Shown one piece after another: positions 316-22,330 of a DNA stretch of 32,000 bases; the stretch's first letter is position 1; each line of letters starts with the position of its first letter. The notes beneath the pieces were generated by a model. It worked only from the letters and a program-made list of their open reading frames with translations. It searched no databases and was not told the DNA's origin. Origin of the DNA: Promethearchaeum syntrophicum (GTDB lineage: Archaea; Asgardarchaeota; Lokiarchaeia; Sigyniarchaeales; Promethearchaeaceae); assembly GCF_008000775.2 (NCBI RefSeq), contig NZ_CP042905.2:990001-1022000 (forward strand), given 5' to 3'. Made by a program: the position numbers and the translations under genes.

Positions 316-738
316 TCAAACTTGAAAATCAAATACATCATCGGGAACCATTAAATTATCTACAATATGTATTACTCCATTTGTACCTAAAATATCTTTT
401 ATGAGAATATTCGCTGATCCAATTTTTTCACCGTTCTGAAAAATCTCGATCATATTTCCTTCCAGTGTTGGTATTGATTTTCGGTGCGATAAATCGAAGG
501 AGGAATGCTTTCCAGGCAAAATATGGTTGGAAAAGACTTTTCTTAATACTTCTTTATCATGAAACAATTTAAATATAGTTTTTTCAGGCAATTTTCTTAT
601 TGCTTCTTCAACAGGCGCGATTATGGTAAACGGCCCCTTATCTTTCAAATCTTCGGTAAGTTTCACTGCTTCAATGCCTTCAAGGAATAAGTTAAATGCA
701 TTCATATCCTTTAGGGTCTTATATATATTTGAGGGCAA
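316..738 (-). CDS. Fasciclin (FAS1) domain protein
   Basis: 140-aa ORF. FAS1 signature order is present: GPFTIIAPVEEAI ... HILPGKH ... TLEGNMIEI ... NGVIHIVDNLMVP. Codon 1 is TTG (+ strand caa at 736-738); the first in-frame ATG is codon 12 (703-705), so the start is uncertain. No N-terminal signal peptide is visible. Confidence 0.7.
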   Translation of the reverse strand: MPSNIYKTLKDMNAFNLFLEGIEAVKLTEDLKDKGPFTIIAPVEEAIRKLPEKTIFKLFHDKEVLRKVFSNHILPGKHSSFDLSHRKSIPTLEGNMIEIFQNGEKIGSANILIKDILGTNGVIHIVDNLMVPDDVFDFQV

Positions 739-1714: not shown

Positions 1715-1966
1715 TCACTCTCTAGATGCCCATACAATGTCGTCAGCTGATAATCTCTTGCGCTTTTCATCCTTAACCAATGATAGTGCCTTTTTTGTAG
1801 TCCTTTTAGCTTGCATTTCTAATTGTTCTATTAATAATTCAATGGCTCCATCGCTGACTAATGATGCTCCTTGTTCTTTCATAAATCTTTTTATTGGTGC
1901 CTTAGACATAAAATTCGTTTGAGATTTTGAATTTATAATAATTTTTTTCGATTTTTTTTTAGCCAT
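1715..1966 (-). CDS. Archaeal histone-fold protein with a 20-22 aa Lys-rich N-terminal extension
   Basis: 83-aa ORF. PIKRFMKEQGASLVSDGAIELLIEQLEMQAKRTTKKALSLVKDEKRKRLSADDIVWA matches the archaeal histone / NF-Y histone fold. The N-terminus is MAKKKSKKIIINSKSQTNF. An alternative internal ATG at codon 20 (1907-1909) would give a canonical tail-less histone. Confidence 0.75.
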   Translation of the reverse strand: MAKKKSKKIIINSKSQTNFMSKAPIKRFMKEQGASLVSDGAIELLIEQLEMQAKRTTKKALSLVKDEKRKRLSADDIVWASRE

Positions 1967-2090: not shown

Positions 2091-4532
2091 ATGTTGGATC
2101 AATTTATTAATCATGAATTTTTAAAACCGAATTTACTTTTAAAACGGAAATATCAAGTTGATATTTTCGTCACTTGTTCAAAAAAAAATTGTTTAGTAGT
2201 AGTTCCAACTGGGTTGGGAAAAACTATTATTGCTTTATTGTTAAGTCTCCATTATTTAAAAAAAAAAAAAAAATCAAAGATTATTTTTTTGGCACCCACC
2301 AGGCCTTTAGTAGAGCAACACCTGCAAACTTTTAAAAATCTAACAAATTTTGATTCTGAATCACTCATAATGATGACTGGAACAATAGCGCCAAAAAAAA
2401 GGGTAGAATTATATAAAGAAGATGATACGAAATGTTTCTTCATGACACCCCAAGTGCTTCAAAATGATATTATTGGGAATAGAGTATCTTTATTAGATGT
2501 AGCTTTAATAATATTCGATGAGGCACACCGCGCAAGTGGAAATTATGCATATAATTTCCTAGCTAAGAAATATGTTGAACATGCAAGAAAACCAAGAATT
2601 CTCGCAATGACCGCTTCCCCCGGAAAAAATCGAGAAATAATAGAGGAAGTAATGCAAAACCTATTTTTAGAAACAATTGAGATCCGGACAGATTCGGATC
2701 CGGATGTTAAACCCTATATTCAAGATGTGAAGGTGATATGGAAAGATATTGAGCTTCCTGAAGAAATGCATCAATTGAATCGACTTATTGTGGAAATGAA
2801 GAAGAAAATCTATAAAGAATTAAAATCAAATGAATTATTGGATTCAGAAAATGTGCAAAAAATCACACGAAGAAACTTGTTAAGTGCGATGTCTGCCTTA
2901 GATGCACTTATTGTAAAGGGAAAATACGGAAGTGACCTTCCTCGACTTTTATATTGTAAAAAATTATTCTCTAATGCAATTAGATTATCTCATATGTCTG
3001 AATTGCTTGAAGCTCATGGGATTAAATCATTAAAAACTTATCTTGATAAGAATTTAAAAGATGTCCAAGAAGGAAAAGGAGGGAAATCTCTTGAGGAATT
3101 ATTCAATAATTCACGAATGGATGAGATAATTGAGAATGTGAAAATGCTTACTTTTGATAAAGTAGATCATCCCAAAATGATCATTTTGATGGATATATTA
3201 CAAGAACAATTCCAGATTAACCCTGAATCTAGGATATTAGTTTTTTGCCATTTTCGTGATACGATCTCTCATATCATTAAAGAAATTAGCAATAACGAAC
3301 TAATTAAACCTTCAAAATTTATAGGCCAGCAAACTAAAGGCAAAGAAAAAGGATTTTCTCAAAAAAAGCAACTTGAAATTCTTGAACAATTCAAAAATGG
3401 GGATTTTAATACACTAGTGGCAACGTCTGTTGGTGAAGAAGGCTTAGATATTTCGGAATGTGATGTTGTAATATTTTTTGATGTGGTTCCCAGTGAAATT
3501 CGCGCCATTCAGCGCCGAGGGAGAACCGGTAGAAATAAATCAGGAAAGGTATACGTTTTTAAAACTAAAGGTACTCGTGAAGAAGGATATTTTTGGGCTG
3601 AAAAAAGGAGGGAAAAGGAAATGAAACGTGTTTTGAAAGAGATTAAGAAAGATTTGGGTGATTCACCCTTGCAGAGAAAATCTAAAAAAAAAAAAGATCT
3701 GATTTCTTTTATTCAAACTTCTGGAAAAAAGCAAATATCTTCTCAAAAGGAAGTTCTCGCTAAGGAAAAGAATAGTGAAAAGAGTGAAAAAAATGAGATT
3801 GATAATGAAACTAAATTTGAGAAAAAGAAAATCAATTTCTCTGCAAATACAGTCCCAATTGACAGTTCAGAACCTAAAATTCTAGTAGATTCCAGAGAAA
3901 CCGCCTCATCTGTCACAAGAGAGTTATCAGAAAGAAACGCTTTAATATCTCTAGAAAAACTACCAATAGGTGATTATATAATATCAGAACGCTGCGGAAT
4001 TGAGCGTAAAAGTGTTCAAGATTTTACTGATTCAATAAAGGATGGTCGACTTTTTAAAGAATTACAGAAACTTCGAACACAATTTTCTTTACCAATCTTA
4101 ATTTTGGAAGGAAATTTGAATTCCATTCTTAGTATTAAACGAGCTGCTATCCTTGGAACACTATCAAGTATTTTATTAAATATGAATATTTTACTACTTC
4201 AAACATTATCTCCCGAAGAAACTGCTGAAATGCTTTATGCTCTAGCAAAAAAAGAACAACAAACCAAAGATAAGAAGAATTTTTCTATCAGATTTAAAAA
4301 ATTACCTGAGAAGATTTCTGAGCAGATGGAATATATTGTTTCTGGAATTCCTGGAATAAATTCTTCAAGAGCTAAGGATTTACTTAACCAATTTCATTCT
4401 TTGAGAGAATTATTCTCTGCTGAGATAGAAGATCTAGAAAAAACTCCAAATATTGGTCCAGTTCTAGCTCAAACAATTTTAAAATATTCCATAACGGATT
4501 ATGAAAAATCAACAAAAACTGAAAATCAGTGA
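2091..4532 (+). CDS. hef: Hef: FANCM-type DEAH helicase fused to an XPF/ERCC4 nuclease and C-terminal HhH
   Basis: 813-aa ORF. Helicase motifs: VVVPTGLGKT (motif I), FDEAHRASG (DEAH), MTASPG, VATSVGEEGLD, RRGRTGR. A Lys/Ser/Glu-rich linker follows. Then the ERCC4 motifs VDSRE ... GDYIIS ... GIERKSVQDF and a terminal helix-hairpin-helix region (GIPGINSSRAKDLL ... IGPVLAQTI). Confidence 0.9.
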   Translation: MLDQFINHEFLKPNLLLKRKYQVDIFVTCSKKNCLVVVPTGLGKTIIALLLSLHYLKKKKKSKIIFLAPTRPLVEQHLQTFKNLTNFDSESLIMMTGTIAPKKRVELYKEDDTKCFFMTPQVLQNDIIGNRVSLLDVALIIFDEAHRASGNYAYNFLAKKYVEHARKPRILAMTASPGKNREIIEEVMQNLFLETIEIRTDSDPDVKPYIQDVKVIWKDIELPEEMHQLNRLIVEMKKKIYKELKSNELLDSENVQKITRRNLLSAMSALDALIVKGKYGSDLPRLLYCKKLFSNAIRLSHMSELLEAHGIKSLKTYLDKNLKDVQEGKGGKSLEELFNNSRMDEIIENVKMLTFDKVDHPKMIILMDILQEQFQINPESRILVFCHFRDTISHIIKEISNNELIKPSKFIGQQTKGKEKGFSQKKQLEILEQFKNGDFNTLVATSVGEEGLDISECDVVIFFDVVPSEIRAIQRRGRTGRNKSGKVYVFKTKGTREEGYFWAEKRREKEMKRVLKEIKKDLGDSPLQRKSKKKKDLISFIQTSGKKQISSQKEVLAKEKNSEKSEKNEIDNETKFEKKKINFSANTVPIDSSEPKILVDSRETASSVTRELSERNALISLEKLPIGDYIISERCGIERKSVQDFTDSIKDGRLFKELQKLRTQFSLPILILEGNLNSILSIKRAAILGTLSSILLNMNILLLQTLSPEETAEMLYALAKKEQQTKDKKNFSIRFKKLPEKISEQMEYIVSGIPGINSSRAKDLLNQFHSLRELFSAEIEDLEKTPNIGPVLAQTILKYSITDYEKSTKTENQ
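2258..2273. repeat. A16 homopolymer inside the hef coding sequence (encodes KKKKK)
   Basis: Read directly: ...cattatttaaaaaaaaaaaaaaaatcaaag..., lying between helicase motifs I and Ia. Confidence 0.95.
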
Positions 4533-4568
4533 AATTAAATCTAAAATATTCTTATTTGATTACATAAT

Positions 4569-5411
4569 ATGGGAGAAAAAACAATTAAACATAACAAATT
4601 CCGAATTTTTAAAAGAATTCTCCCAAATTGGGATCATGATTTACACGTTCATTCAAATTGGTCTCAAGATAATCTCGATGGCCCTTCATTAGAAGAATTT
4701 ATTCCCTTGGCTGAACGATTTAAAATTCATATTGGATTTGCAGATCATTTTGAATTCAAATTTCCTAATCCTAAGGATCCAAAATGTAAGGAATGTCGTT
4801 TAAATCAAAACTCTGTTGATAATTACTTAGAAGAAATTGATAAAATCAAAGAAAATTACCCTTTTATTACTTCAGGACTAGATTTTAAATTTATTCCAAT
4901 TCGTAAAGACAAATTGCAAGAATTTACGGATGATTATAGGAAACAATTCGATTTTTTCATAGGTAAGGTACTTGAAATTGAAGAAATCCCTTCAATCCAT
5001 AAAAAAAGTTCTTTAAATGATGTGCTAGACAAATTCTTTCAATTAGAAGTAGAACTCTTAAAGTCTAAAATTTTCGATTGTATAGCCCATCCAGATAAAA
5101 CTTTTCGCTTTTTTGCTAAAAAAGAACTTAAAAATCATCCCGAATATGCATTTGATGAAAGAATTTTAGAATTGGGTGCATTATGTGAAAATACGCGTAC
5201 AATGATGGAAGTAAACTTGAGTGGGTATCGATTTCCTTGGAAAACCCCCTTCCCCAATTTAGATTATTTACATCATTTACTTGCTCAAGGCGTTTCCTTC
5301 ATCGTAGGATCAAATAGTTATACTCTTGAGGATTTCTCGAATAATGTTCTTAATATCAGGAGGATAAATCAAATAATTAAAGGGGAATTTTTGTTTACAA
5401 AAAAATTTTAA
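4569..5411 (+). CDS. PHP-domain metal-dependent phosphoesterase (histidinol-phosphatase HisJ-like family)
   Basis: 280-aa ORF with the N-terminal DLHVHSNWSQD motif, then GFADHFE and CIAHPD. This fits the spacing of metal-binding His/Asp clusters in the PHP fold. Confidence 0.6.
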   Translation: MGEKTIKHNKFRIFKRILPNWDHDLHVHSNWSQDNLDGPSLEEFIPLAERFKIHIGFADHFEFKFPNPKDPKCKECRLNQNSVDNYLEEIDKIKENYPFITSGLDFKFIPIRKDKLQEFTDDYRKQFDFFIGKVLEIEEIPSIHKKSSLNDVLDKFFQLEVELLKSKIFDCIAHPDKTFRFFAKKELKNHPEYAFDERILELGALCENTRTMMEVNLSGYRFPWKTPFPNLDYLHHLLAQGVSFIVGSNSYTLEDFSNNVLNIRRINQIIKGEFLFTKKF

Positions 5412-5435
5412 AGTTACAGAACTACATCATTTTTA

Positions 5436-6053
5436 ATGGCTAGGAAAAAAAAAAAAAAACAACAAGAATCACCTTCGAGTACTATTCAACCTTTGGAGCA
5501 AACAAAAGAATTAATGGGAATGTTACAAGGGTCGGATGATAAAGAAATTATTAAGCAAGAAAAAACTGAGAGTTCTGAAATCGAAAAAAGTGTTAATCAA
5601 TCGCCACCTCCTCCTCCTCCTCCTCCATCAACTGATTCTTCTGTAGCCCCTCCGATATCTCAAGAAGAACAAAAAACTGATGAAAGAACCACTTCTTCCT
5701 TTTTCAAAGATACGGGAGAATTCTTCAATCAACTTGGGGAGGCTTATGAAGCTCGTTATTCTCTCTGGGAAAAATCAGATTTAACAGTAATGGCAATACT
5801 CCGTGAAATTAGAAAAATAAATGAAGAAAACACAGATCAATTTGTTAAAGCTATTAATGTTTTGGATAATAAGATCTCAAAGGGTTTTAATGAATTTTTA
5901 GTTAAAAGAAGTGAACTTGAAAGATATTCAGATACAGATTATAAAGAAATCGCTAAAAATTTCCAAAAAACATTAGATTTATTAAATTTTCAAATCAGAG
6001 AGTTTAAGCTAAATCAAATGGTGACGGCGATGTTCAATATTTATGCAAAATAA
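5436..6053 (+). CDS. Hypothetical protein: basic/low-complexity N-terminus, P8 tract, helical C-terminal half
   Basis: 205-aa ORF. Starts MARKKKKKQQ (an A15 run at 5445-5459), then SPPPPPPPPS. The C-terminal ~110 aa reads as amphipathic helices. I recognise no family. Confidence 0.5.
   Translation: MARKKKKKQQESPSSTIQPLEQTKELMGMLQGSDDKEIIKQEKTESSEIEKSVNQSPPPPPPPPSTDSSVAPPISQEEQKTDERTTSSFFKDTGEFFNQLGEAYEARYSLWEKSDLTVMAILREIRKINEENTDQFVKAINVLDNKISKGFNEFLVKRSELERYSDTDYKEIAKNFQKTLDLLNFQIREFKLNQMVTAMFNIYAK
5607..5624. repeat. (CCT)6 trinucleotide repeat encoding the core of the poly-proline tract
   Basis: Read directly: cca cct cct cct cct cct cct cca (5604-5627), in frame with the 5436 ORF. Confidence 0.95.
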
Positions 6054-6160
6054 AATCGAGTCGAATTGTTTTACGTACATATGCGAATGGGATTTTTTCA
6101 AAGATATTAATTTTTCATCAAATTTTATTTAAGGTTATAATCCTTATTAGTTTTAGAATA

Positions 6161-7249
6161 ATGGATATCTTAATTGATGTTGGAGCTTTTGAAAGTTTGA
6201 TTGGTATTCCAAATGAGGAAATTTATAGATTCCGAGAAAGATCTGTATATTCTGATTCAAATAATCCTATAATTAAAAAAACAGTAATGCAAGGTGCTCT
6301 AGCAGAAATTAATTTTAAGAGGTATTATGGAAATGCTGCATTGCGGTTTAAAAATGTACTAAATGTTCAGTATTTCATGAAAGAGAAGGATTTCATTTCT
6401 TATTCAAAATTAATTGGAAAAAAATTGCTTGAATTATCATTGAAACCAAAAGAAACAGGGTTGGTGTTAGTGGTATCAAATCACTTTTCAAAAAATGATA
6501 AACTAAATCTTCAAAACTCATTATTTCAAACTCTTAAAATCCCTCGAATTGCCTTTTTACCTCACACAGCTTCAATTTTAACTGAATTGGAATTAAATAC
6601 AGGAGTAATTATTGATATGGGATATTATTCTACTAGAATTGAAAGTATTTATAAAGGTTTTCCTAATTCGGATAGTCAATTTATATTTCCATTGGGTGGA
6701 TATCATGTTACTCAACAGATACTTAATAATATCTTTTCTCGTCTTGAATATAGGTCGGATTTACCACTTTTATGGGAATCAGAACGTATTAAAAATGAAA
6801 AATTATTTGTTGTGGAAGATCCTGAGAAGTGCTCTGACCAAATTCATAAAGGATTTAAAAATTTTGATTTCATCATGGAATTACCTGATGGAAAGGAGAT
6901 AATATTAAATAAAGAAAGATATGAACCCGCAGAAATCTTTTTTAATCCATTAATTGCCCATACCAGATCTGAAAATATAGTTGAATTAATTGAAAATTCT
7001 ATAAAATCTTGGGAAAGAGATCATTTAAGAGAACTTTGCTCCAATATTATCATTATAGGTAATGGTGGTAAAATTCCAGGATTAAATCAAAAAATTGAAA
7101 AATTATTAAAAAAAAGATTTGCGGAATCAGTGGATGTTAAAATCATTGAAATTTCAGATCAAAAAGATATATTCTGGATCGGGGCTTCTAAATTTATTAA
7201 ATCTAAAAAAGAATTAAAATGGATTTCAAATCCATCAACGGAGATTTAA
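6161..7249 (+). CDS. Actin-family protein (divergent actin-related protein with degenerate nucleotide-binding loops)
   Basis: 362-aa ORF. By-eye alignment to actin: [17 protein letters not shown] ~ [42 protein letters not shown] ~ [46 protein letters not shown] ~ [31 protein letters not shown] ~ YSVWIGGSIL. The N-terminal [12 protein letters not shown] stands in place of VVDNGSGMCKAG. Confidence 0.8.
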   Translation: [362 protein letters not shown]

Positions 7250-7252
7250 AAA

Positions 7253-9814
7253 TTGTCCAAATTAGAATTAGAGAATATTACCGATTTCTATAAAAAAATT
7301 TCCAAGATTCAAAATTTATTAGATGAATTTAATCATTTTTGGGCAAAAGAGTTATTTAATCAAATTATTAAGGAAATCGAAATAAAAATTGAAACAATAT
7401 CTGAACGTATAAGTATTTATAACATTTTAATTAATATTTGGGAGTCTTATGTTAAAAATTTAGTTTCAGATTTGTATAGTAATTGGCCTTTGATCTATGA
7501 TGCATATAATTGTATTTTTGAAATTTTATCTGTCTTAAATGAATCAAATCGCATTTCAGAGATCGGAATTAGGCTAGTAAAAATTTTCCATAAAATAAAA
7601 TTTACCAATAATAAAAATATTGCAAAAATATTAGAGTCACTTGCATTATTGATATATAATTCTGAAAACTTTCAAAAATCGTTAGAATTATTCTTCTTAT
7701 CATTCTATTTTAATGAAGGATTTCTCCAGACTCCCAGCAGTGATGAATGTTTTAAAAAATTTAATTCTCTACTTTTAAAATTATCCACTGATCATCGTGA
7801 TATTTTGCTTAATGCATTTTTATTTGAGATTTATGATGGTTTTTTTGATGGTAACAATATAAAATTTCAAGATTTTACTGAAATGCTGTATAGGATATCA
7901 TTCCAAAATTTTGAATTCACCCTTCACAAAAGTATGCAAAAAATATCCCAACATTCCATAAATTTTCAAGAAGAAATAGGATTAGTAGAAGAAACTATTG
8001 ATTTTCTTCAAATGATAAAGGAAGAAAGATGGGCTTTTTCAGTAGTGAAAATATATTCCAATATACTCTATAAACTAAATAAAAATCAAAAATTAGAGAA
8101 ATTCATTTATTCCTTTATAGAAAAATCGTGTAAACATGGTGAATATTCAACCGCGTTAAAAACTTATTCTTATTTGGATGAGATAACATATTCAAATGAT
8201 TCTGAATTTCAAATAAGAAGCATTAAGATATGGGCAAAAGCTGCCAAAAATTTTAGAAAATTAGCTGACAAATCATATTTTGTCTCAGCAATAAAAAGCT
8301 TCCGTGAATTATTAAAATTACCCAAAGATCCCCGGTTATTTCAAGATTTTACATACGCATTCAATGAATATTATCGTTTAGTTCGGGGAAGGTTGAATAT
8401 TGATGAAGAAGAATTCTGGTGGATTGCTTTTCATAGAAGTATTTTTGAAGAGGGATTTAAAGATATTGCAGAGCTAAGTGCTAAAAATCTAAATATTGCC
8501 CAATTACCATTATTTGAATCAATGATTAATGACGGCATTCAGAAAACAATTGAAATGAAAACAAGACTAGCTAAAACTAACGATCCTATAGATATTGGAG
8601 GAATGATACCATCTAAAATTATTATTAAACTCCGAATTCCGGCAAATAAAAATATGAAAATGTATTCTGAATTAATTTATACATCAGGTTTTTCTAAACC
8701 AGAATTAGTAAAAATTGACGAGATATGGAAAGAACCTCAGTTAATTAAGTTATATATGCAATTGCCATTCAATAATCCCCAAATCGAAAATTTAAATCAA
8801 TCTCAAATATCACAAGTTCAATTTGGAAAATTAGCTTTTCTTTTTCTTCCTCAAGAACTTAGAATGTTTTTCTCACAACTAAATATTGGAAAGGATCATG
8901 TTCCTGAAATTTTCATTATAATGGATGAACCTGGGTATCCATTTGAAATGTTACACGATGAAAAATCATCATTAGGAACAAAATTCGCATTTGGATATAG
9001 GTTTGATGAACCAAAATTAAGTCCAGAGAAAATAGTAATTCAAGACCAACCTGAAGATGTTGTGAATTTGAAATATATGATCTTAGCTATAGGTGATTTA
9101 AATAGGAATTTCCCTAAAATTTGGAATGAAAATGATAAGAAATATTATCCCCTCTACCCATTCCCCGAGAGTTCAAAACAATTAGAATTTCTTGAATCTA
9201 AATTAAATAATCTTCTACATTTAGTCGAAAAATCTACATTTCTCAATTCACAGTCCGGAACTTATCAAAATATTGAAAAAGAAATTACTTCTGGTTTATA
9301 TAATATCATCTACATTTCTTCAAACCTTTTTTATATTGAAGAAAATCCCCTTCATTCATATTTTATCACTCCTGATGATAAAATAATAAACCTTCAAGAT
9401 ATTCTAGAAATGCTTGAATTTGCTCAAAAACACAATGAGATACAAGGAATTCCATTCTTTAAACCATTATTAGTTTTTGATGCCCATATTATTGATAGGT
9501 CTGGTAAGATCATATCTAGATCGTTCAATCAATTAAGTAATATATCAAAATTAGTTGGATCAAAAAATAATCTTGGAATTTTAGCGAGGATCTCTATTGA
9601 ATTCGATGAAATTTTAAAATTATTTTTATCTGAATTTATTAATCGGCTCTTTCTAAGAGAATCAATAGGTTCAGCCTTACTCAAAGCTCATAAACAGCTA
9701 TATAGAATAGTCAAAAGTTTAGAAAAACTTGATGAAGACAATTATTCTCTTTCGCAAACGCTCTTAGAGACTCATTATGTATTTTATGGTAATTTATTTA
9801 ATTTTTTGGAATAA
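7253..9814 (+). CDS. Large hypothetical protein: N-terminal helical (TPR-like) region plus C-terminal CHAT-like (caspase-fold) domain lacking the His/Cys dyad
   Basis: 853-aa ORF with a TTG start 3 nt after the actin-gene stop. GGAG at 7240-7243 is a plausible Shine-Dalgarno. There is no in-frame ATG for roughly the first 210 codons. The C-terminal ~300 aa follow CHAT motif order: IFIIMDEPGYPFEML, FAFGYRF, PFPESSKQLEFLE, NIIYISSNLFY at the His-motif position, KPLLVFDAHIID at the Cys-motif position, and IGSALLKAHKQL at the end. Confidence 0.6.
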   Translation: MSKLELENITDFYKKISKIQNLLDEFNHFWAKELFNQIIKEIEIKIETISERISIYNILINIWESYVKNLVSDLYSNWPLIYDAYNCIFEILSVLNESNRISEIGIRLVKIFHKIKFTNNKNIAKILESLALLIYNSENFQKSLELFFLSFYFNEGFLQTPSSDECFKKFNSLLLKLSTDHRDILLNAFLFEIYDGFFDGNNIKFQDFTEMLYRISFQNFEFTLHKSMQKISQHSINFQEEIGLVEETIDFLQMIKEERWAFSVVKIYSNILYKLNKNQKLEKFIYSFIEKSCKHGEYSTALKTYSYLDEITYSNDSEFQIRSIKIWAKAAKNFRKLADKSYFVSAIKSFRELLKLPKDPRLFQDFTYAFNEYYRLVRGRLNIDEEEFWWIAFHRSIFEEGFKDIAELSAKNLNIAQLPLFESMINDGIQKTIEMKTRLAKTNDPIDIGGMIPSKIIIKLRIPANKNMKMYSELIYTSGFSKPELVKIDEIWKEPQLIKLYMQLPFNNPQIENLNQSQISQVQFGKLAFLFLPQELRMFFSQLNIGKDHVPEIFIIMDEPGYPFEMLHDEKSSLGTKFAFGYRFDEPKLSPEKIVIQDQPEDVVNLKYMILAIGDLNRNFPKIWNENDKKYYPLYPFPESSKQLEFLESKLNNLLHLVEKSTFLNSQSGTYQNIEKEITSGLYNIIYISSNLFYIEENPLHSYFITPDDKIINLQDILEMLEFAQKHNEIQGIPFFKPLLVFDAHIIDRSGKIISRSFNQLSNISKLVGSKNNLGILARISIEFDEILKLFLSEFINRLFLRESIGSALLKAHKQLYRIVKSLEKLDEDNYSLSQTLLETHYVFYGNLFNFLE

Positions 9815-9830
9815 GCTAAAAGTTAAAAAT

Positions 9831-9866
9831 AATAGATAGAATTAGAAAATAATAGAATTAGAAAAT
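9831..9866. repeat. Imperfect tandem repeat (aatagaattagaaaat unit, twice) in the gap upstream of the 172-aa gene
   Basis: Read directly: aatagATAGaattagaaaat followed by aatagaattagaaaat, ending 22 nt before the ATG at 9889. Confidence 0.8.
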
Positions 9867-9888
9867 ATTACATCGAGGTAAATTTGAA

Positions 9889-10407
9889 ATGTCCTTATTA
9901 CGTGCAGAAAACATAAAATTGAGAACTAAAGTTGAAGATCTTGAAAATCGATTATTAAATTTAGTCGGAACGATTAAAATCTTCACCGGTGGAATGCCCG
10001 GGAACGAACATATTATGAATAACAATATTGCAGAAATAATCACAAATGCAACTGATTTAAAGATTGTTGCACCTTACATCACTAATGAATATGCTATGAT
10101 ATTAAAAGATCGGGCAATGAATGGCATTAAAGTTCAAATTGTCCTAAATGACAGGCGAATGTGGCCCGCAAAATTTGTCGATATATATGATGAAATAAAA
10201 GTGACAAATGGAATAGATCTCATTAACAATCCAAATGTAAAATACCTTTTAGTTTGGAGTCCAAAAACAGCTTTATTTACCAGTGGACCTCTTGATAAGG
10301 ATTCTCTGATGAATACGGTTCTTATTGGCACTCTAATCAATGAAAAAGGTAAAATAAATGAATTATTAAAAATATTCCAATTAATGTTGCCTTCTTTCAT
10401 GCGATAA
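9889..10407 (+). CDS. Hypothetical protein: short N-terminal coiled coil plus PLD-like (PLDc_2-type) domain with a degenerate HKD motif
   Basis: 172-aa ORF. The layout resembles single-domain PLD/Nuc proteins: DLKIVAPYITNEYAMILKDRAMNGIKVQIVLNDRR ... NVKYLLVWSPKTALFTSGPLDKDSL. NVK stands where HxK is expected, and no Asp is at the +7 position. Confidence 0.4.
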   Translation: MSLLRAENIKLRTKVEDLENRLLNLVGTIKIFTGGMPGNEHIMNNNIAEIITNATDLKIVAPYITNEYAMILKDRAMNGIKVQIVLNDRRMWPAKFVDIYDEIKVTNGIDLINNPNVKYLLVWSPKTALFTSGPLDKDSLMNTVLIGTLINEKGKINELLKIFQLMLPSFMR

Positions 10408-10434
10408 ACTCTTGAGGTTCTGGAAAAATTATAA

Positions 10435-11652
10435 ATGGTAGAACATATGGAGAAAAAAACATACATCATCCCCGAATCAGGTGAAAATTCTGATTTTGTA
10501 TATAATTTTTGCATGAAACTATTTTTCTATTTAGGGATGATATGTTTTATTCCTTATTTTATAATCCTCAATATATTAACTACTCCCTTTTTTCCAGATT
10601 CAAGCAACAAGATTTTAATTTATGGATTGATCATAGGCACTTTATTTCTTCTATTTATAATGGATAATATTGGAATGCATTCCTCCTTTATTGATCGAAT
10701 AAGTCGCCTGATAACTTTAATATTAACTGTAGTAGGTGCCTCTCTCTCGATATTAATTCTTATTATCCCGAATATGGTTACTAGTTCAACAAATGTCGAA
10801 TTTTACTTAAAATTGGCAATAATTTTAACATTTGAAATTCTAGGATGGTTTTTCATTAGAAACAGTAGAGGCCTTTCTAAAGTTAAAGTTAAACCATTTT
10901 ATAATACAAGCATGTGGTCTCTTCTACTGTGTGGCATAATCTTTCTGTTTGAATACTTCGTGAAAAATGCAATCTTTGTATTCTTAGCAATAATTTTTTT
11001 GATTTATCCTATTATGATAATTGGATGGGGAAAACTTAAGGTAATTCCTTCAATTAAACCAAGAAAATTGGTGAGACCTTATAAAAGAACTACATTTTAC
11101 AATTATGCCATTGATATTGGAAAAGCTGTAATAATTCTTTTAACAATTCTTGCAGTTATTTATGATGGAACAGTTGTGTTATATCCTGCTGAATTAAGTT
11201 CTAATCCCGCTGCATGGATTCGGAATTTGGCAATAGTTGGAATTTTTGCAGCATTAGCAATGGAATTTTATATAAAAATTCAAACCGCTTTTTATGGCTT
11301 GGCTGTTATAATTATTCTCTATTTACTTTGTTTAATTCAATACCTTCTTGTTAACACTTTTTATTTTCATTTTTGGTATCTAATTGCACCAATAAATGGA
11401 TTCACGCTAGCGGGAGTTTATTTCTTCATCGAACAAAAATTATTTAAATCCAACAATGTAAGAGCAATGCCGGGAAGTTTCTATGTATTAATCCTAATTA
11501 TTGTTATCAGCGCGATAATCCTAAGAATAACCCCTGATGTTGATGATATTATTGAAAATTCGAAATTTGCATTATCCTTAATTGGATTGGCTTATATCAT
11601 AGGATATATACGTGAAGCACCAAAACAAACATCACTTCGAATTTCTATATAA
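10435..11652 (+). CDS. Polytopic integral membrane protein, unknown function
   Basis: 405-aa ORF, almost entirely successive hydrophobic segments. It starts 27 nt after the PLD-like gene on the same strand. Confidence 0.55.
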   Translation: MVEHMEKKTYIIPESGENSDFVYNFCMKLFFYLGMICFIPYFIILNILTTPFFPDSSNKILIYGLIIGTLFLLFIMDNIGMHSSFIDRISRLITLILTVVGASLSILILIIPNMVTSSTNVEFYLKLAIILTFEILGWFFIRNSRGLSKVKVKPFYNTSMWSLLLCGIIFLFEYFVKNAIFVFLAIIFLIYPIMIIGWGKLKVIPSIKPRKLVRPYKRTTFYNYAIDIGKAVIILLTILAVIYDGTVVLYPAELSSNPAAWIRNLAIVGIFAALAMEFYIKIQTAFYGLAVIIILYLLCLIQYLLVNTFYFHFWYLIAPINGFTLAGVYFFIEQKLFKSNNVRAMPGSFYVLILIIVISAIILRITPDVDDIIENSKFALSLIGLAYIIGYIREAPKQTSLRISI

Positions 11653-13891: not shown

Positions 13892-14722
13892 TCACAAAGA
13901 TTTGAAACACCATTCTTCTTCTAAACAGCCACTGTGAATCATAAAGTACATATCCTCTAAGAAACGTGAGGCAGGAGCTCCATCTATCACACTGTGATCG
14001 AATGCAATGGTAGCTGCTAAACGTTCTCTTTCGACAATTTTTCCTTCTTTATCCAGTTCATAACCTCTAGAAATTGCCCCTATCCCAAGAGAAAAAGTAT
14101 GGGGTGTTAGATGAATCATCCAACCTAATTGATTTGCGGTTTTTGCCATCATCCCTGCAGCAGTTAATCCCACTGTCCCTAATAGTTTCTTTTTTAGCAA
14201 AGGGGTTGAAAAAATCTTATGAATTATTATCTTGCGTATAAAACGAGGAAATTTTGGGAAATATTTAATTAATTTCTTCCCCCCCTTATTACCGGTTGTT
14301 AATTCGATTTTTTTTGTTTGCGCTGCTCGAATTTCATTATGAATTTCTCTGAGTGTTTTTATATGTGCGTTACGAACAGTATAATTGACTGGTTTTTTAA
14401 CCCCATCTACATTTCTTTCAATATTTGTCATAACGTCTACCTCATCAAAAATAAAATATTCTTTCTTCTTATATCTCAGCGTATTTATTGGATATTTATG
14501 TTTTTCAACCACTCGAGCATAACAAGCAATGAGAAAGGCAGTAAAGCTGATTGATTCTCCAGATGTTTCCTTATGTTTTCTGAGTCTTTTCCTACATTCT
14601 GTAATATCTGCTGCGCCGAAGGCCCAAATGGTATGCATCTGTTTTGCCACAGAGCGGTAATCATCAATTGCTTTCGCCATAGGGCTTATTTTTTTAATAG
14701 TAACTGAATCTTTTTCTTTCAT
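13892..14722 (-). CDS. Stand-alone 2-oxoacid dehydrogenase E2-type acyltransferase catalytic domain (CAT-like), paralog A
   Basis: 276-aa ORF. The C-terminal catalytic motif is AFDHSVIDGAPASRFLEDM (DHxxxDG). The N-terminal part resembles the start of an E2 catalytic domain (ISFTAFLIACYARVVEKHKYPINT). It is too short to hold lipoyl or subunit-binding domains. Confidence 0.75.
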   Translation of the reverse strand: MKEKDSVTIKKISPMAKAIDDYRSVAKQMHTIWAFGAADITECRKRLRKHKETSGESISFTAFLIACYARVVEKHKYPINTLRYKKKEYFIFDEVDVMTNIERNVDGVKKPVNYTVRNAHIKTLREIHNEIRAAQTKKIELTTGNKGGKKLIKYFPKFPRFIRKIIIHKIFSTPLLKKKLLGTVGLTAAGMMAKTANQLGWMIHLTPHTFSLGIGAISRGYELDKEGKIVERERLAATIAFDHSVIDGAPASRFLEDMYFMIHSGCLEEEWCFKSL

Positions 14723-15025: not shown

Positions 15026-15856
15026 ATGAAGAAAAATATTTCCTTTATCGAGAAGAACATTAGCAGAAATCAACGATTAATTGATGACTATACAACAGAA
15101 GCAAAAAGTAAAAATTTGATTTGGGCTTTCACAGAGATGGACATAACTGAAGCTCAAAAGAAACTACGTGCTTATAAAGAAAATGGTGTAAAAATTAGTT
15201 TTACTGCATTTCTCATCGCTTGTTATGCGCGTTCAGCAGAAAAATATAAATATCCTATAAATACACTGCGCTATAAAAAAAAGAAATATATTACTTTTGA
15301 TGAAGTAGATGTAATGACAAATATTGAAAGAACTATAGATGGTGTAAAAAAACCAGTCAATTATACTGTACGGAATGCTCATAAAAAAACGTTAAGAGAA
15401 ATTAACGATGAGCTAAATGAAGCAAGAACAGTAAAAAAAGTAGCATTGACCACTGGTAATAAAGGGGGGAAAAAATTGCTGAAATTAGTTCCAAAACTAC
15501 CTAGGTTCCTCAGAAAAATAATTATTCATAAAACTTTTATAGATCCTTTCTTAAAAAAGAAATTATTGGGTACAATAGGTCTTTCGGCTGTGGGAATGTT
15601 TGGAAAAGATATAAATCAATTAGGTTGGATGATTCATATAACACCTCATACAATTTCTGTAGGTGTAGGCTCGATTGAGAAGAAATTTGAGATGCAAAAA
15701 GATGGTAATATTAAAGAACGTGAATTCTTAGCGGTCACAATCGCAATGGACCATGCTATAATAGACGGAGGGCCGGCTACGAGATTCTTTCGTGATTTTT
15801 ATCTTATGCTTAGAGACAATTGCTTGGAAGCAGACTGGTGTTTTAAATCATTGTAA
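15026..15856 (+). CDS. Stand-alone 2-oxoacid dehydrogenase E2-type acyltransferase catalytic domain (CAT-like), paralog B
   Basis: 276-aa ORF of the same length as paralog A. About two thirds of positions are identical by eye, for example ISFTAFLIACYAR, YPINTLRYKKK, FDEVDVMTNIER, DGVKKPVNYTVRNAH, TTGNKGGKKL, NQLGWMIH and WCFKSL at the C-terminus. Catalytic motif AMDHAIIDGGPATRFF. Confidence 0.75.
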   Translation: MKKNISFIEKNISRNQRLIDDYTTEAKSKNLIWAFTEMDITEAQKKLRAYKENGVKISFTAFLIACYARSAEKYKYPINTLRYKKKKYITFDEVDVMTNIERTIDGVKKPVNYTVRNAHKKTLREINDELNEARTVKKVALTTGNKGGKKLLKLVPKLPRFLRKIIIHKTFIDPFLKKKLLGTIGLSAVGMFGKDINQLGWMIHITPHTISVGVGSIEKKFEMQKDGNIKEREFLAVTIAMDHAIIDGGPATRFFRDFYLMLRDNCLEADWCFKSL

Positions 15857-19601: not shown

Positions 19602-20885
19602 TCAAGGAATAGGATATACAATAAAGAAAAAATACCTTGAAAATAAGAAGAATACATAGAATCCAACCGCTAAAATAAGCAAGATTTTATAGATGATGCC
19701 ATAGATTTTATTTTCTTTAATTTTTTTATAGAATTTAAATTCTATAGTTTGCCAAATAATTCCTCCGGGAATAGTTATAAGAAGGTTGAGGGGATAATAC
19801 CATAGATAATCAATCGGATGTGAATCAAAACCATTCTCTAAACTGAACCAGAAATGATAAGCGATTGAGAAATATAATATTTGGAATAATAAAATATGAT
19901 AGGTTGATCTACTGATTTTTTTTATTATCTTACTAAATTTATTATCTAGTTTTTTCGGAAAAATCTTTAATACTATTAGAAACAGAAAAGCACTGTAGGG
20001 AAATGAGAGAAAATGATAATCTCCCCCAATCCATCCTAAACCAATTACATACATAAAATTATATAATTGATAAAAACCGTATTGTGCAAAAATAATTAAA
20101 TAAAGTAAACTTATTGGCAGCAGAATCCAGAAAATTATAGTTACCATTGATGAAATTTCATTTCCCATTGATAAAATTTCATGATCTTCAGAGATCCAAA
20201 GCCCCATCCCAATACCTGAGAACAAATAAAAAATATGAGTTGTGAAAAACATTTTCGTGAAGAACCAACCATCAATATAAATATTATAAGATAAAATATG
20301 CATGAACCACTCAATTAGAAAACAGAAAATAAACGTTGCTATTGGGGCATTTTTAAAGCAGATATATAATAATGGAAAGACTAAAATAGACCCAAAAAGC
20401 GCAGGAATGAACCACATACCAGGTCCCCATAAAAAGGTAAAACCAAGAAAACGTAATCCCTCCAAATCATATGGCCATACTTCAATTATATCAGGTTGGA
20501 AAACATAATAAACTAGCAGAAATATAATTGTCTGGATAAAATATAGAATAATATATGGGATAATATATCTTTTCATTTTCAATATGAAATATTCCTTTGA
20601 ATAGGCTTCTTTTAATGTAGTAATTCCTTTTTCTTTGAAGGAAATCCCTAAATTAAATCCCATAACGATAATAAATCCTGGAATAGCAATCCTTTCCCAC
20701 AAAGGTGACCCAAATTGAACCAAAAAATCATGGGTTGTCGAATGATCTAAAATCACTAAGAAAATCATCCACGCTTTCATTATATCTACTTGAAAAAAAT
20801 TTTTCCCAGATTTTAGGTCCCCATTAGAATCTAGATCATTTTCTGAATTCAAATCATTTTGAGATATTTCTAATTTCTTGTCCAT
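19602..20885 (-). CDS. Membrane acyltransferase (acyltransferase-3 / HGSNAT-like family), tandem paralog B
   Basis: 427-aa polytopic ORF. The VDIMKAWMIFLVILDHS segment resembles the conserved first TM motif of acyltransferase-3 proteins (lD.lRg.a...Vv..H). It is highly similar to the 21062-22330 ORF. Confidence 0.5.
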   Translation of the reverse strand: MDKKLEISQNDLNSENDLDSNGDLKSGKNFFQVDIMKAWMIFLVILDHSTTHDFLVQFGSPLWERIAIPGFIIVMGFNLGISFKEKGITTLKEAYSKEYFILKMKRYIIPYIILYFIQTIIFLLVYYVFQPDIIEVWPYDLEGLRFLGFTFLWGPGMWFIPALFGSILVFPLLYICFKNAPIATFIFCFLIEWFMHILSYNIYIDGWFFTKMFFTTHIFYLFSGIGMGLWISEDHEILSMGNEISSMVTIIFWILLPISLLYLIIFAQYGFYQLYNFMYVIGLGWIGGDYHFLSFPYSAFLFLIVLKIFPKKLDNKFSKIIKKISRSTYHILLFQILYFSIAYHFWFSLENGFDSHPIDYLWYYPLNLLITIPGGIIWQTIEFKFYKKIKENKIYGIIYKILLILAVGFYVFFLFSRYFFFIVYPIP

Positions 20886-21061: not shown

Positions 21062-22330
21062 TCAAGCTGCTGGAATTGGAAAAACTATGAAGAAAATGTA
21101 TCTTGAAAATAAGAAAAACACGTAGAATCCAACCGCTAAAATAAGTAAGATTTTATATGTTATGCCAAAGATTTTATTTTCTTTAATTTTTTTATAGAAT
21201 TTTGATTCCAAAGTATGCCAAATAATTCCTCCGGGAATGGTAATAAGAAGGTTGAGTGGATAATACCACAAGTAATCAATTGGATGCAAATCGAAACCAT
21301 CAGCAATAGAGAACCAGAAATGATAAGCGATTGAGAAATATAGTATTTGAAACAATAGAATGTGATAGGTTGATCTACTGATTTTTTTTATTATCTTACT
21401 AAAGGTATTATTTGGATCCTTGGGAAATACCTTCAAAACTAATAAAAATAAAACAGCACTGTAGGGAAATGAGAGGAAATTATAATCTCCACTAATCCAC
21501 CCTAAACCGACCTGATACATTGCTACTCTTAAATTATAGAAACCGACAACGGCATAAATGATTAAATAAATCAAGCTTAAAGGTAGTAGAATCCAGGTAA
21601 TAATCACATTTCGAGGTGAATTTATTTCATAATCATCGGAGATCCAAAGCCCCATGCCGACACCAGAAAACATATAGAATATATGAGTTGAAAAAAACTG
21701 CCTCGTAACCCAGGGTTCAAAATATATATTGAAAGCTAATCTATGCATGATCCATTCAATAATAAAACAAGCAACAAAAGTTGCTATTGGGGTTTTTTTA
21801 TAACAAATATATAATAAAGGAAAGACCAAAATTGACCCGAACAGCGCAGGAATGAACCACATACCTGGACCGTAAAAAGGGGTATATCCTAACATCATAT
21901 ATTCTGAATAATAATAAGGTGCAACTTCAATCATTTCTGGTTGGAAAATAACATTAACAAATAAAAATATAATTGTTTGGAACAAATACAGAATTATATA
22001 AGGGATTATATATCTTTTCATCTTGGAAACAAAATAATCCTTGGAATACGCTTCTTTTAATGTAGTAATCCCTTTTTTTTTGAAGGAAATTCCCAAATTG
22101 AACCCCATTATTACAATAAATCCTGGAATAGCAATTCTCTCCCATAATGGTGACCCAAATTGAATCATAAAATCATGGGTGGTCGAATGATCTAAAATAA
22201 CCAAGAAAATCATCCATGCTTTCATTATATCTACTTGAAAATAATTTTTCCCGGATTTTAGATCAATATCAGATTTTAGGCCATTCTCTGATTTTAATTC
22301 ATTTTCGGAAACTTCCAACTTTTCGTCCAT
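21062..22330 (-). CDS. Membrane acyltransferase (acyltransferase-3 / HGSNAT-like family), tandem paralog A
   Basis: 422-aa polytopic ORF with the same N-terminal motif VDIMKAWMIFLVILDHS. Long runs are identical to paralog B (ISRSTYHILLFQILYFSIAYHFWFS, HPIDYLWYYPLNLLITIPGGIIW, YKILLILAVGFYVFFLFSRY). About 45 nt upstream of both start codons is also similar. Confidence 0.5.
   Translation of the reverse strand: MDEKLEVSENELKSENGLKSDIDLKSGKNYFQVDIMKAWMIFLVILDHSTTHDFMIQFGSPLWERIAIPGFIVIMGFNLGISFKKKGITTLKEAYSKDYFVSKMKRYIIPYIILYLFQTIIFLFVNVIFQPEMIEVAPYYYSEYMMLGYTPFYGPGMWFIPALFGSILVFPLLYICYKKTPIATFVACFIIEWIMHRLAFNIYFEPWVTRQFFSTHIFYMFSGVGMGLWISDDYEINSPRNVIITWILLPLSLIYLIIYAVVGFYNLRVAMYQVGLGWISGDYNFLSFPYSAVLFLLVLKVFPKDPNNTFSKIIKKISRSTYHILLFQILYFSIAYHFWFSIADGFDLHPIDYLWYYPLNLLITIPGGIIWHTLESKFYKKIKENKIFGITYKILLILAVGFYVFFLFSRYIFFIVFPIPAA

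What the first reader, a model, noticed from the sequence alone, without database searches (positions are those of the whole stretch)
8810..9700. CHAT-like (caspase-fold) domain with both catalytic positions substituted
The C-terminal third of the 853-aa protein follows the CHAT motif order I recognise. Where CHAT has the ilHlatHg His motif, this protein has IIYISSNLF. Where CHAT has lvvLsaCetg, it has LLVFDAHIID. The closing helix (SIGSALLKAHKQL) matches the a.Alr.Aq..l ending.

A TPR-like N-terminus plus CHAT is the classical architecture of this family, seen in bacterial conflict and PCD proteins and in separase-like enzymes. Here it appears to be a pseudo-protease. A His next to the former Cys position could alternatively mean a shifted active site.
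Basis: inference. Interest (0 to 1): 0.65.

Follow-up and report, generated by a model that had tools for sequence, protein, structure and literature searches.

The report
Dead TPR-CHAT protease beside Asgard ARP
An 853-residue protein of the Asgard archaeon Promethearchaeum syntrophicum has the fold of a CHAT/caspase-type protease but lacks both catalytic residues in every known relative. Its gene always sits directly behind an actin-related-protein gene, so it is most likely a non-cutting scaffold of an undescribed archaeal actin-related-protein module.

Summary
ORF 7253-9814 (+) is DSAG12_01480 of Promethearchaeum syntrophicum MK-D1. It has a TPR-like N-terminal solenoid and a C-terminal CHAT/caspase-fold domain.

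The window protein itself does not hit Pfam CHAT. Homology is shown in three other ways:
- Five homologues exceed the Pfam cut-off (best 43 bits).
- An AlphaFold model (pLDDT 88) best matches the CHAT proteins DdvA, SAVED-CHAT and Csx29 (Foldseek E 3e-8 to 2e-6).
- Putting His at N691 and Cys at H745 in silico raises the window protein's own CHAT score to 27.7 bits, above the cut-off.

Across 37 family members the His column is N/S/T/Y and the Cys column is Q/R/K/L/H. H745 is unique to this strain, so a shifted active site is not supported. The domain is under strong purifying selection (dN/dS 0.08).

Beyond the finding: in all 12 independent genomic contexts examined (protein identity down to 14%, GC 30-67%), the gene lies directly downstream of an Asgard actin-related protein. 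The L. ossiferum ortholog of that protein is UYP47647.1. A basic, linker-containing (often Pro-rich) small protein, and usually a His-less PLD-like protein, accompany them.

Most likely it is a non-catalytic scaffold of an Asgard ARP complex. That function is inferred, not shown.

The parts
7253..9814 (+). Whole gene: 853-aa TPR-pseudoCHAT protein (DSAG12_01480). TTG start 3 nt after the stop of the ARP gene.
   Evidence: N-terminus conserved in 12 orthologs
7253..8569 (+). Residues 1-439: all-helical TPR-like solenoid.
   Evidence: AF2 helices; Foldseek LGN/Pins TPR 3e-4, TPR-CHAT 7zoq_A 4e-4; HMMER match to the TPR array of canonical TPR-CHAT P0051; weak Pfam TPR_3 in 7/13 orthologs
8570..8887 (+). 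Residues 440-545: beta-rich N-terminal extension of the CHAT domain (three long strands plus helices). Contains conserved W492 and the LP..R motif (L532, P533, R537).
   Evidence: AF2 model m225ddb6e6d5b; conservation
8888..9811 (+). Residues 546-853: CHAT/caspase-fold core, with order b1-a1-b2-a2-b3-hairpin-a3-b4-a4-b5-helices-b6.
   Evidence: the restored window fragment aligns residues 551-818 to Pfam CHAT positions 25-268
9323..9325 (+). Codon of N691, the position of the catalytic His (motif IIYISS-N-LF). Asn in 33 of 37 family members, never His.
9485..9487 (+). Codon of H745, the position of the catalytic Cys (motif LLVFDA-H-IID). Q/R/K/L elsewhere, never Cys.
9662..9700 (+). Residues 804-816, SIGSALLKAHKQL: closing helix motif of CHAT. 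G806 and A812 are invariant in the family.
6161..7249 (+). Upstream partner gene: actin-related protein (DSAG12_01479, 362 aa).
   Evidence: Pfam Actin 3.3e-29; PDB actins 1e-20; directly upstream of the pseudoCHAT gene in every context examined; the L. ossiferum ortholog carries the UYP47647.1 primers
5436..6053 (+). Cassette gene (DSAG12_01478, 205 aa): basic N-terminus MARKKKKK, a variable low-complexity linker that is Pro-rich in this strain and some relatives, and a conserved ~125-aa helical C-domain.
   Evidence: present in all contexts long enough to show it; downstream instead of upstream in L011
9889..10407 (+). Cassette gene (DSAG12_01481, 172 aa): coiled coil plus a PLD/TrmB-C-like domain without the HKD His. 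Invariant C-terminal LPSFMR.

Best explanation
DSAG12_01480 is a catalytically dead member of the TPR-CHAT (caspase-fold) protease superfamily. It keeps the complete fold but no longer cuts proteins.

It most likely acts as a non-enzymatic scaffold or receptor for the actin-related protein (ARP) encoded 3 nt upstream. In this reading, its TPR surface and the former substrate groove clamp extended peptide segments of its partners. Candidate segments are the low-complexity linker of the 205-aa protein and the invariant LPSFMR tail of the 172-aa PLD-like protein.

The four co-encoded proteins would then form an ARP-containing complex specific to Promethearchaeota (Lokiarchaeia-type Asgard archaea).

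Shown here: the fold, the loss of the dyad, purifying selection, and the invariant gene pairing.
Inferred: physical association, and peptide clamping as the mechanism.
For: Fold and family:
- Pfam CHAT hits in 15/22 members, five above the cut-off.
- AF2 pLDDT 88.3.
- Foldseek best matches are CHAT proteins at 3e-8 to 2e-6, then clan-CD proteases.

Dead site:
- The profile-probing restoration test identifies N691 and H745 as the dyad columns.
- None of 37 sequences has His or Cys at these columns.
- No other His or Cys column is conserved.

Still functional:
- dN/dS is 0.08 in the CHAT part, the lowest of the protein, against 0.11 in the TPR part.
- Asn at the His column is 89% conserved. N617, P621 and W624 after strand b1 are 100% conserved.

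Partnership with the ARP:
- An Actin-family gene lies directly upstream on the same strand. Where both gene boundaries are called, the gap runs from a 4-nt overlap to a 15-nt spacer.
- This holds in the window and in L001, L002, L003, L004, L005, L007, L009, L010, L011, L012 and L014. Protein identity runs from 85% down to 14%, and GC from 30% to 67%.
- Starting from the ARP side gave the same pairing in two further contexts.
- The 205-aa protein co-occurs in all contexts long enough to show it. The 172-aa protein co-occurs in most.

Not defence:
- No PADLOC hits for the CHAT protein or the ARP.
- Only the cassette is conserved in distant genomes, while the flanks differ.

Precedent from established knowledge: eukaryotic ARPs work inside multi-subunit complexes, and TPR-CHAT proteins dock onto partners (Csx29 on Cas7-11, separase with securin; PMC11506125).
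Against: - No direct evidence of a physical complex. Conserved adjacency and tight gene spacing prove co-inheritance and probable co-translation, not binding.
- No multimer model could be run.
- The 172-aa gene is absent next to the pair in L010 and L011 (short contigs), so the cassette is not fixed at four genes.
- The ARP is transcribed several-fold less than Lokiactin in L. ossiferum (PMC9834061).
Confidence: 0.55

Rival explanations
1. It is still a peptidase that uses a non-canonical or shifted catalytic apparatus, for example H745 or another nucleophile/base pair.
For: The fold is intact and strongly conserved. D743 (D/N in 34/38) and D748 flank the former Cys position. S702 is 97% conserved.
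Against: - H745 is unique to this strain, and orthologs 85-88% identical have Q.
- No column in the domain has His or Cys above 48%, so no conserved base or nucleophile pair of a clan-CD type exists.
- The Cys column is Q/R/K/L.
Confidence: 0.06
2. It is a component of a biological-conflict, defence or programmed-cell-death system, like bacterial TPR-CHAT proteins (Craspase, SAVED-CHAT, DdvA).
For: The closest structural matches are defence-associated CHAT proteins. The 172-aa neighbour weakly resembles the DISARM PLD nuclease DrmC (E 3e-4).
Against: - No PADLOC hit for the CHAT protein or the ARP.
- No CRISPR, CBASS or STAND genes in the window. The neighbours are Hef, a PHP-domain protein, AlaRS and an aminotransferase.
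- The protease dyad and the PLD His are both lost.
- The cassette is vertically conserved across deep divergence, not patchy.
Confidence: 0.08
3. It is a pseudo-protease scaffold or regulator that acts on targets other than the ARP. Examples would be a TPR co-chaperone-like adaptor, or a decoy/regulator of an active CHAT protease encoded elsewhere. Adjacency to the ARP would then reflect only shared regulation.
For: Pseudo-caspases such as c-FLIP act by pairing with active paralogs (PMC7586951). TPR domains bind many ligands. The complex with the ARP is untested.
Against: The gene pairing survives divergence down to 14% identity, with tight spacing and 4-nt overlaps in two contexts. This is typical of subunits of one complex. 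No active close paralog was found among 1.84 billion representatives; only 48 hits passed, and every one that covers the site lacks the dyad.
Confidence: 0.25
4. The CHAT resemblance is a chance motif match in an AT-rich, low-complexity protein.
For: The window protein alone has no Pfam CHAT hit at E<=1 and no PDB sequence hit.
Against: all point to true homology.
Confidence: 0.01

Closest known systems
Csx29 / TPR-CHAT of type III-E CRISPR 'Craspase' (PDB 8EEX, 7ZOQ)
   Same: Same two-part architecture: an N-terminal TPR solenoid plus a C-terminal CHAT caspase-fold domain. It works docked onto a partner protein encoded next to it. Foldseek E 1.6e-6 for the CHAT part and 4e-4 for the full length.
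   Different: Csx29 has an active His-Cys dyad and is linked to Cas7-11 and CRISPR. Here the dyad is N/H (family-wide N and Q/R), there are no CRISPR genes, and the partner is an actin-related protein.
DdvA periplasmic TPR-CHAT domain of Myxococcus xanthus (PDB 8ROT; PMC11506125)
   Same: Best structural match (E 2.9e-8). A TPR-CHAT used in a regulatory or sensing role, with no proteolysis yet demonstrated.
   Different: DdvA keeps the canonical dyad H862/C907 and is a transmembrane anti-sigma factor. The Asgard protein has no dyad and no predicted membrane anchor, and its gene context is different.
Separase (peptidase C50; PDB 5U1T, 5MZ6, 9HN0)
   Same: A large helical N-terminus plus a caspase-fold C-terminus. 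It binds an extended pseudosubstrate (securin) in the groove. Weak Foldseek matches (6e-3 to 5e-2).
   Different: Separase is active, much larger and eukaryotic. No specific sequence relationship was detected, and no cohesin/kleisin link is seen here.
Pseudo-orthocaspases, TbMC4 and c-FLIP (dead caspase-fold proteins; PMC6426788, PMC7586951)
   Same: Both dyad residues are replaced while the fold, and apparently the binding pocket, are conserved. These proteins are presumed to be non-catalytic binders or regulators.
   Different: They belong to peptidase family C14 (p20 domain), mostly with Y/S substitutions. They were reported absent from Archaea (PMC6426788). Here the domain is CHAT, the substitutions are N and Q/R, the organism is an Asgard archaeon, and the protein is paired with an ARP.
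Canonical bacterial-type TPR-CHAT protein P0051 (1074 aa)
   Same: It is the only canonical TPR-CHAT protein among the 48 significant hits of the exhaustive search. Its TPR array matches the family's N-terminal region (E 4.7e-10). Its 'HLSTHG' motif aligns with the window's 'YISSNL'.
   Different: P0051 scores 169 bits on Pfam CHAT, with intact 'THG' and 'SACETALG' motifs and classical TPR_12/TPR_10 repeats.

Membership tests
CHAT domain superfamily (Pfam PF12770, clan CD caspase-hemoglobinase fold) | The protein itself reaches the Pfam CHAT gathering score (24 bits). | tested here: not met
   No CHAT hit at E<=1, or even at the E<=10 setting. It reaches 27.7 bits only after the in-silico changes N691H+H745C.
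CHAT domain superfamily (Pfam PF12770, clan CD caspase-hemoglobinase fold) | Homology to CHAT demonstrable through its own family (transitive profile evidence). | tested here: met
   15/22 full-length homologues hit CHAT. Five are above the cut-off (43.2, 39.0, 29.9, 26.2 and 24.0 bits) over profile positions ~15-272 of 289. These homologues match the window family profile at E 1e-5 to 1e-75.
CHAT domain superfamily (Pfam PF12770, clan CD caspase-hemoglobinase fold) | Caspase-hemoglobinase fold with the dyad sites after strands b3 and b4. | tested here: met
CHAT domain superfamily (Pfam PF12770, clan CD caspase-hemoglobinase fold) | Catalytic His-Cys dyad. | tested here: not met
   The His column is N691 and the Cys column is H745. 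Family-wide there is no His and no Cys at these columns, and no alternative conserved His or Cys.
TPR-CHAT architecture | N-terminal TPR or TPR-like solenoid preceding CHAT. | tested here: met
   Helical solenoid over residues 1-439. Foldseek TPR proteins at 3e-4. HMMER match to the TPR array of P0051. Classical Pfam TPR models hit only weakly.
Craspase (Csx29) | Genetic association with Cas7-11/gRAMP and a CRISPR array. | tested here: not met
   None of the 24 ORFs of at least 100 aa in the window has Cas-like domains. No padloc hit.
Separase (C50) | Active dyad, securin/kleisin partners, size above 1000 aa. | tested here: not met
   Dyad absent. Length is 853 aa. Only marginal Foldseek similarity (6e-3). 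Partners were not testable.
Pseudo-orthocaspase / C14 p20 | Match to the Peptidase_C14 p20 domain. | tested here: not met
   No C14 hit in any of 22 members, and CHAT is the only protease family found.
ARP-containing multiprotein complex (functional class) | Physical association with an actin-related protein. | not testable with these tools
   Only genomic evidence: invariant ARP-then-pseudoCHAT adjacency in 12 contexts.

The most novel reading that the evidence does not exclude
The ARP (UYP47647.1-type), the TPR-pseudoCHAT, the basic small protein with its low-complexity (often Pro-rich) linker and the His-less PLD-like protein form a dedicated, stoichiometric Asgard ARP machine. It would be an archaeal counterpart of the eukaryotic rule that ARPs work only inside scaffolded complexes. 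In it, a protease fold has been turned into a peptide-clamping scaffold, with a separase/securin-like binding mode but no cleavage.
Probability: 0.35. Interest if true: 0.8.

Novelty: new variant of a known kind. Interest (0 to 1): 0.6.

Why it matters
Asgard archaea carry several actin-related proteins whose functions and partners are unknown. Only Lokiactin filaments have been visualised (PMC9834061).

A gene pair conserved down to 14% protein identity gives one of these ARPs a concrete candidate partner set. That makes its function testable by co-expression, pull-down and cryo-EM, in two cultured species: P. syntrophicum and L. ossiferum.

It also documents a whole family of dead CHAT proteases in Archaea. 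A 2019 survey found no pseudo-caspase homologues of the C14 family in Archaea (PMC6426788). This adds a clear case of a protease fold reused as a scaffold.

If the complex is real, it bears on how ARP-based machines arose before eukaryotes.

Tried and rejected
- Direct Pfam and NCBIfam scans of the window protein gave no CHAT hit.
- PDB sequence searches with the single protein, with profiles A1 and A3, and with P0029 found no CHAT chain.
- The first AF2 run, with 13 close orthologs, left the C-terminal domain unmodelled (pLDDT below 50). A 41-sequence alignment fixed this.
- tblastn of P0035 against plasmids, run to fetch canonical CHAT genes, found nothing.
- hhalign, hmmalign and E-INS-i against the single canonical CHAT P0051 were unreliable, because P0051 has a ~50-residue insert between the His and Cys motifs. 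Only L-INS-i aligned the His motif.
- The search for homologous proteins with the diverse alignment returned only close relatives.
- The search for related loci failed with the diverse alignment A2 and worked with A4.
- Literature searches for the locus tags, Asgard plus CHAT, Asgard plus separase, Asgard plus ARP plus TPR, and the assembly accessions found nothing relevant.
- Rejected ideas: a shifted His active site, a defence system, and a chance motif match.
Full report
WHAT IS THERE

The window is part of the Promethearchaeum syntrophicum MK-D1 chromosome. The ORF at 7253-9814 (+), 853 aa with a TTG start, is 100% identical to DSAG12_01480. NCBI calls it hypothetical and UniRef calls it 'CHAT domain protein'.

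IS IT A CHAT DOMAIN?

The protein itself gives no Pfam CHAT hit even at permissive thresholds. It also has no sequence match to any PDB chain.

The family is small. An exhaustive HMMER search of 1.84 billion cluster representatives found 48 proteins at E<=1e-3. All named members come from Promethearchaeota MAGs, Promethearchaeum spp. or Candidatus Lokiarchaeum ossiferum.

Scanning 22 diverse members individually changes the picture. Fifteen hit Pfam CHAT, and five exceed the 24-bit gathering score: P0029 43.2, P0035 39.0, P0024 29.9, P0023 26.2 and P0058 24.0. The alignments span profile positions ~15-272 of 289.

A first AlphaFold run with 13 close orthologs left the C-terminus unmodelled. 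With a 41-sequence alignment, residues 440-853 fold with pLDDT 88.3 and pTM 0.89. The strand and helix order is that of the caspase-hemoglobinase fold.

Foldseek against the PDB ranks CHAT proteins first:
- DdvA 8rot, 2.9e-8
- SAVED-CHAT 8tl0, 1.1e-7
- Csx29 8eex_B, 1.6e-6

The N-terminal 439 residues are an all-helical solenoid. It matches TPR proteins (LGN/Pins 3e-4) and the Scalindua TPR-CHAT 7zoq_A (4e-4). At the sequence level it matches the TPR array of a canonical TPR-CHAT protein, P0051 (E 4.7e-10).

WHERE ARE THE CATALYTIC POSITIONS?

I could not superimpose coordinates, so I probed the Pfam CHAT profile with point substitutions.

His column:
- In P0029, His at N588 raises the score by 4.9 bits.
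- His at the three neighbouring positions lowers it by 0.5-4.1 bits.

Cys column:
- In P0035, Cys at Q278 raises the score by 4.9 bits, against -0.4 to +1.9 at neighbouring positions.

Window protein (C-terminal fragment):
- N691H alone brings it from undetected to 21.1 bits.
- N691H+H745C gives 27.7 bits, above Pfam's cut-off, and the alignment extends through the Cys motif.
- N691H+I746C gives only 22.6 bits.

An L-INS-i alignment with the canonical protein P0051 ('HLSTHG', 'VLSACETALG') also pairs its catalytic His with N691. In P0029 the Cys gain peaks one residue downstream, but that column has no conserved Cys either.

IS THE LOSS FAMILY-WIDE, AND IS THE DOMAIN STILL CONSTRAINED?

In 37 sequences covering the site:
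- the His column is N33/S1/T1/Y2;
- the Cys column is Q21/R12/K2/L1/H1.

H745 is unique to strain MK-D1, and orthologs 85-88% identical have Gln. No column of the domain reaches 50% His or Cys. A shifted His/Cys site is therefore not supported.

The domain is nevertheless the best-conserved part of the protein. Identity to P0013 is 53% in the CHAT part against 35% in the TPR part. dN/dS against the L001 ortholog is 0.08 (CHAT) against 0.11 (TPR).

Family-specific residues are strongly conserved: N617, P621 and W624 after strand b1, N691, P699, S702, D708, R/K779, G806 and A812. This is a maintained pseudo-enzyme, not a decaying gene.

CONTEXT

The gene starts 3 nt after the stop of a 362-aa Actin-family gene (Pfam 3.3e-29; best PDB matches are actins at 1e-20).

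The same pairing, ARP then TPR-pseudoCHAT on the same strand, is found in every context I could examine. Where both gene boundaries are called, the gap runs from a 4-nt overlap to a 15-nt spacer. The contexts are:
- close relatives (L001, L005);
- an uncultured archaeon with a 42%-identical protein (L002);
- L. ossiferum (L007);
- L009, L012/L013 and L014;
- and the deeply divergent L003 (24%), L004 (23%, 60% GC), L011 (20%) and L010 (14%, 67% GC).

The L. ossiferum ARP carries both RT-qPCR primers published for UYP47647.1, one of the three non-Lokiactin actin homologues of that organism (PMC9834061).

Two more genes travel with the pair:
1. A small protein (window 5436-6053) with a basic N-terminus (MARKKKKK), a variable low-complexity linker and a conserved helical C-domain. 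The linker is a proline run in the window protein and (AAPPG)n repeats in L010. The protein is present in all contexts long enough to show it.
2. A 172-aa protein (9889-10407) with a coiled coil and a PLD/TrmB-C-like domain. It lacks the HKD His and ends in an invariant LPSFMR tail. It is present in most contexts.

In the distant genomes only this cassette is shared and the flanking genes differ. No PADLOC defence model hits the CHAT protein or the ARP. The window's other genes are housekeeping genes.

INTERPRETATION

Shown:
- a TPR-CHAT protein with an intact fold;
- a family-wide dead dyad;
- strong purifying selection;
- strict co-inheritance and tight gene spacing with an Asgard ARP.

Inferred:
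- It is a non-catalytic scaffold or receptor of an ARP-containing complex.
- It probably binds extended peptides through the TPR surface and the former substrate groove, in the way Csx29 docks on Cas7-11 and separase holds securin (PMC11506125).

I put about 0.9 on 'dead CHAT-fold protein' and about 0.55 on 'ARP-complex scaffold'.

Rivals:
- a scaffold for other targets (0.25);
- a defence/PCD component (0.08);
- a cryptic active protease (0.06);
- a chance resemblance (0.01).

COMPARISON AND NOVELTY

The architecture is that of the known TPR-CHAT proteins Csx29, DdvA and, more distantly, separase. However, a defining feature of the enzymes, the His-Cys dyad, was tested and is not met.

Dead caspase-fold proteins are known: pseudo-orthocaspases, TbMC4 and c-FLIP. 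These belong to family C14, and a 2019 survey found none in Archaea (PMC6426788).

I found no paper in the searchable library on an Asgard CHAT protein or on an ARP-TPR/CHAT gene pair. UniRef already labels the protein 'CHAT domain protein', so the domain call itself is not new. What appears new is the family-wide inactivation and the obligate ARP partnership. I rate it a new variant of a known kind, with interest 0.6.

Noticed in passing
window 6161-7249 (+); alignment A7: The partner ARP looks like a poor ATPase. The residue aligned to the Asp of the actin 'D-x-G-D-G' nucleotide-binding motif is D/N/G/S across orthologs (window 'IIDMGYY'). From my recollection of actin numbering (D154, Q137, H161), the residues at the Q137 and H161 positions appear to be T and R in the window protein; those two were read by eye from the alignment.
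   Followed up: partly
window 9889-10407 (+): The 172-aa protein has a coiled coil plus a PLD-like domain (poxvirus F13/OPG057 E 0.002, NucT 0.004, weak DrmC; UniRef name 'TrmB C-terminal domain'). It lacks the HKD His (N/T/E instead). Its C-terminal tail LPSFMR is invariant in six orthologs down to 40% identity. This makes it a second apparent pseudo-enzyme in the same cassette.
   Followed up: partly
window 5436-6053 (+); L010 1-545: The 205-aa protein starts with MARKKKKK and has a proline run (PPPP PPPP) in its linker. The 67%-GC ortholog in L010 has (AAPPG)n repeats in the same place, while other orthologs have non-Pro low-complexity linkers. The conserved ~125-aa helical C-domain has no Pfam or PDB match.
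   Followed up: partly
window 2091-11652 (+): Seven co-directional genes with short spacers: Hef-like helicase/ERCC4 nuclease, PHP-domain protein, the four-gene cassette, and a 405-aa multi-pass membrane protein. This order is conserved in L. ossiferum and other Lokiarchaeia-type genomes, but not in the most distant cassette carriers.
   Followed up: partly
window 13892-14722 (-) and 15026-15856 (+): Two divergently oriented 276-aa ORFs both hit only the catalytic domain of 2-oxoacid dehydrogenase acyltransferases (E 2e-13 and 2e-14). They look like stand-alone paralogs without lipoyl domains.
   Followed up: no
window 19602-20885 (-) and 21062-22330 (-): Tandem paralogous Acyl_transf_3 membrane acyltransferases (E 2e-17 each).
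   Followed up: no
window 22441-24153 (+) and 24209-26074 (+): A 570-aa protein with weak coiled-coil-type matches (tropomyosin/MLP-like) is followed by a 621-aa TPR-containing protein with a TTG start. Both are uncharacterised.
   Followed up: no
window 1715-1966 (-) and 316-738 (-): An archaeal histone-fold protein (CBFD_NFYB_HMF, E 9e-10) and a fasciclin-domain protein (E 2e-25) lie upstream of the Hef gene. The histone is conserved next to Hef in L001, L005 and L012.
   Followed up: no
window 10134-10514 (-): A 126-aa antisense ORF overlaps the 172-aa gene. Its apparent conservation in L005 probably just reflects the overlap, so it is likely spurious.
   Followed up: no
P0051 (from the search): The only canonical, dyad-bearing TPR-CHAT protein among the significant hits matches the family through its TPR array, not its CHAT domain. 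It has a ~50-residue insert between the His and Cys motifs.
   Followed up: partly
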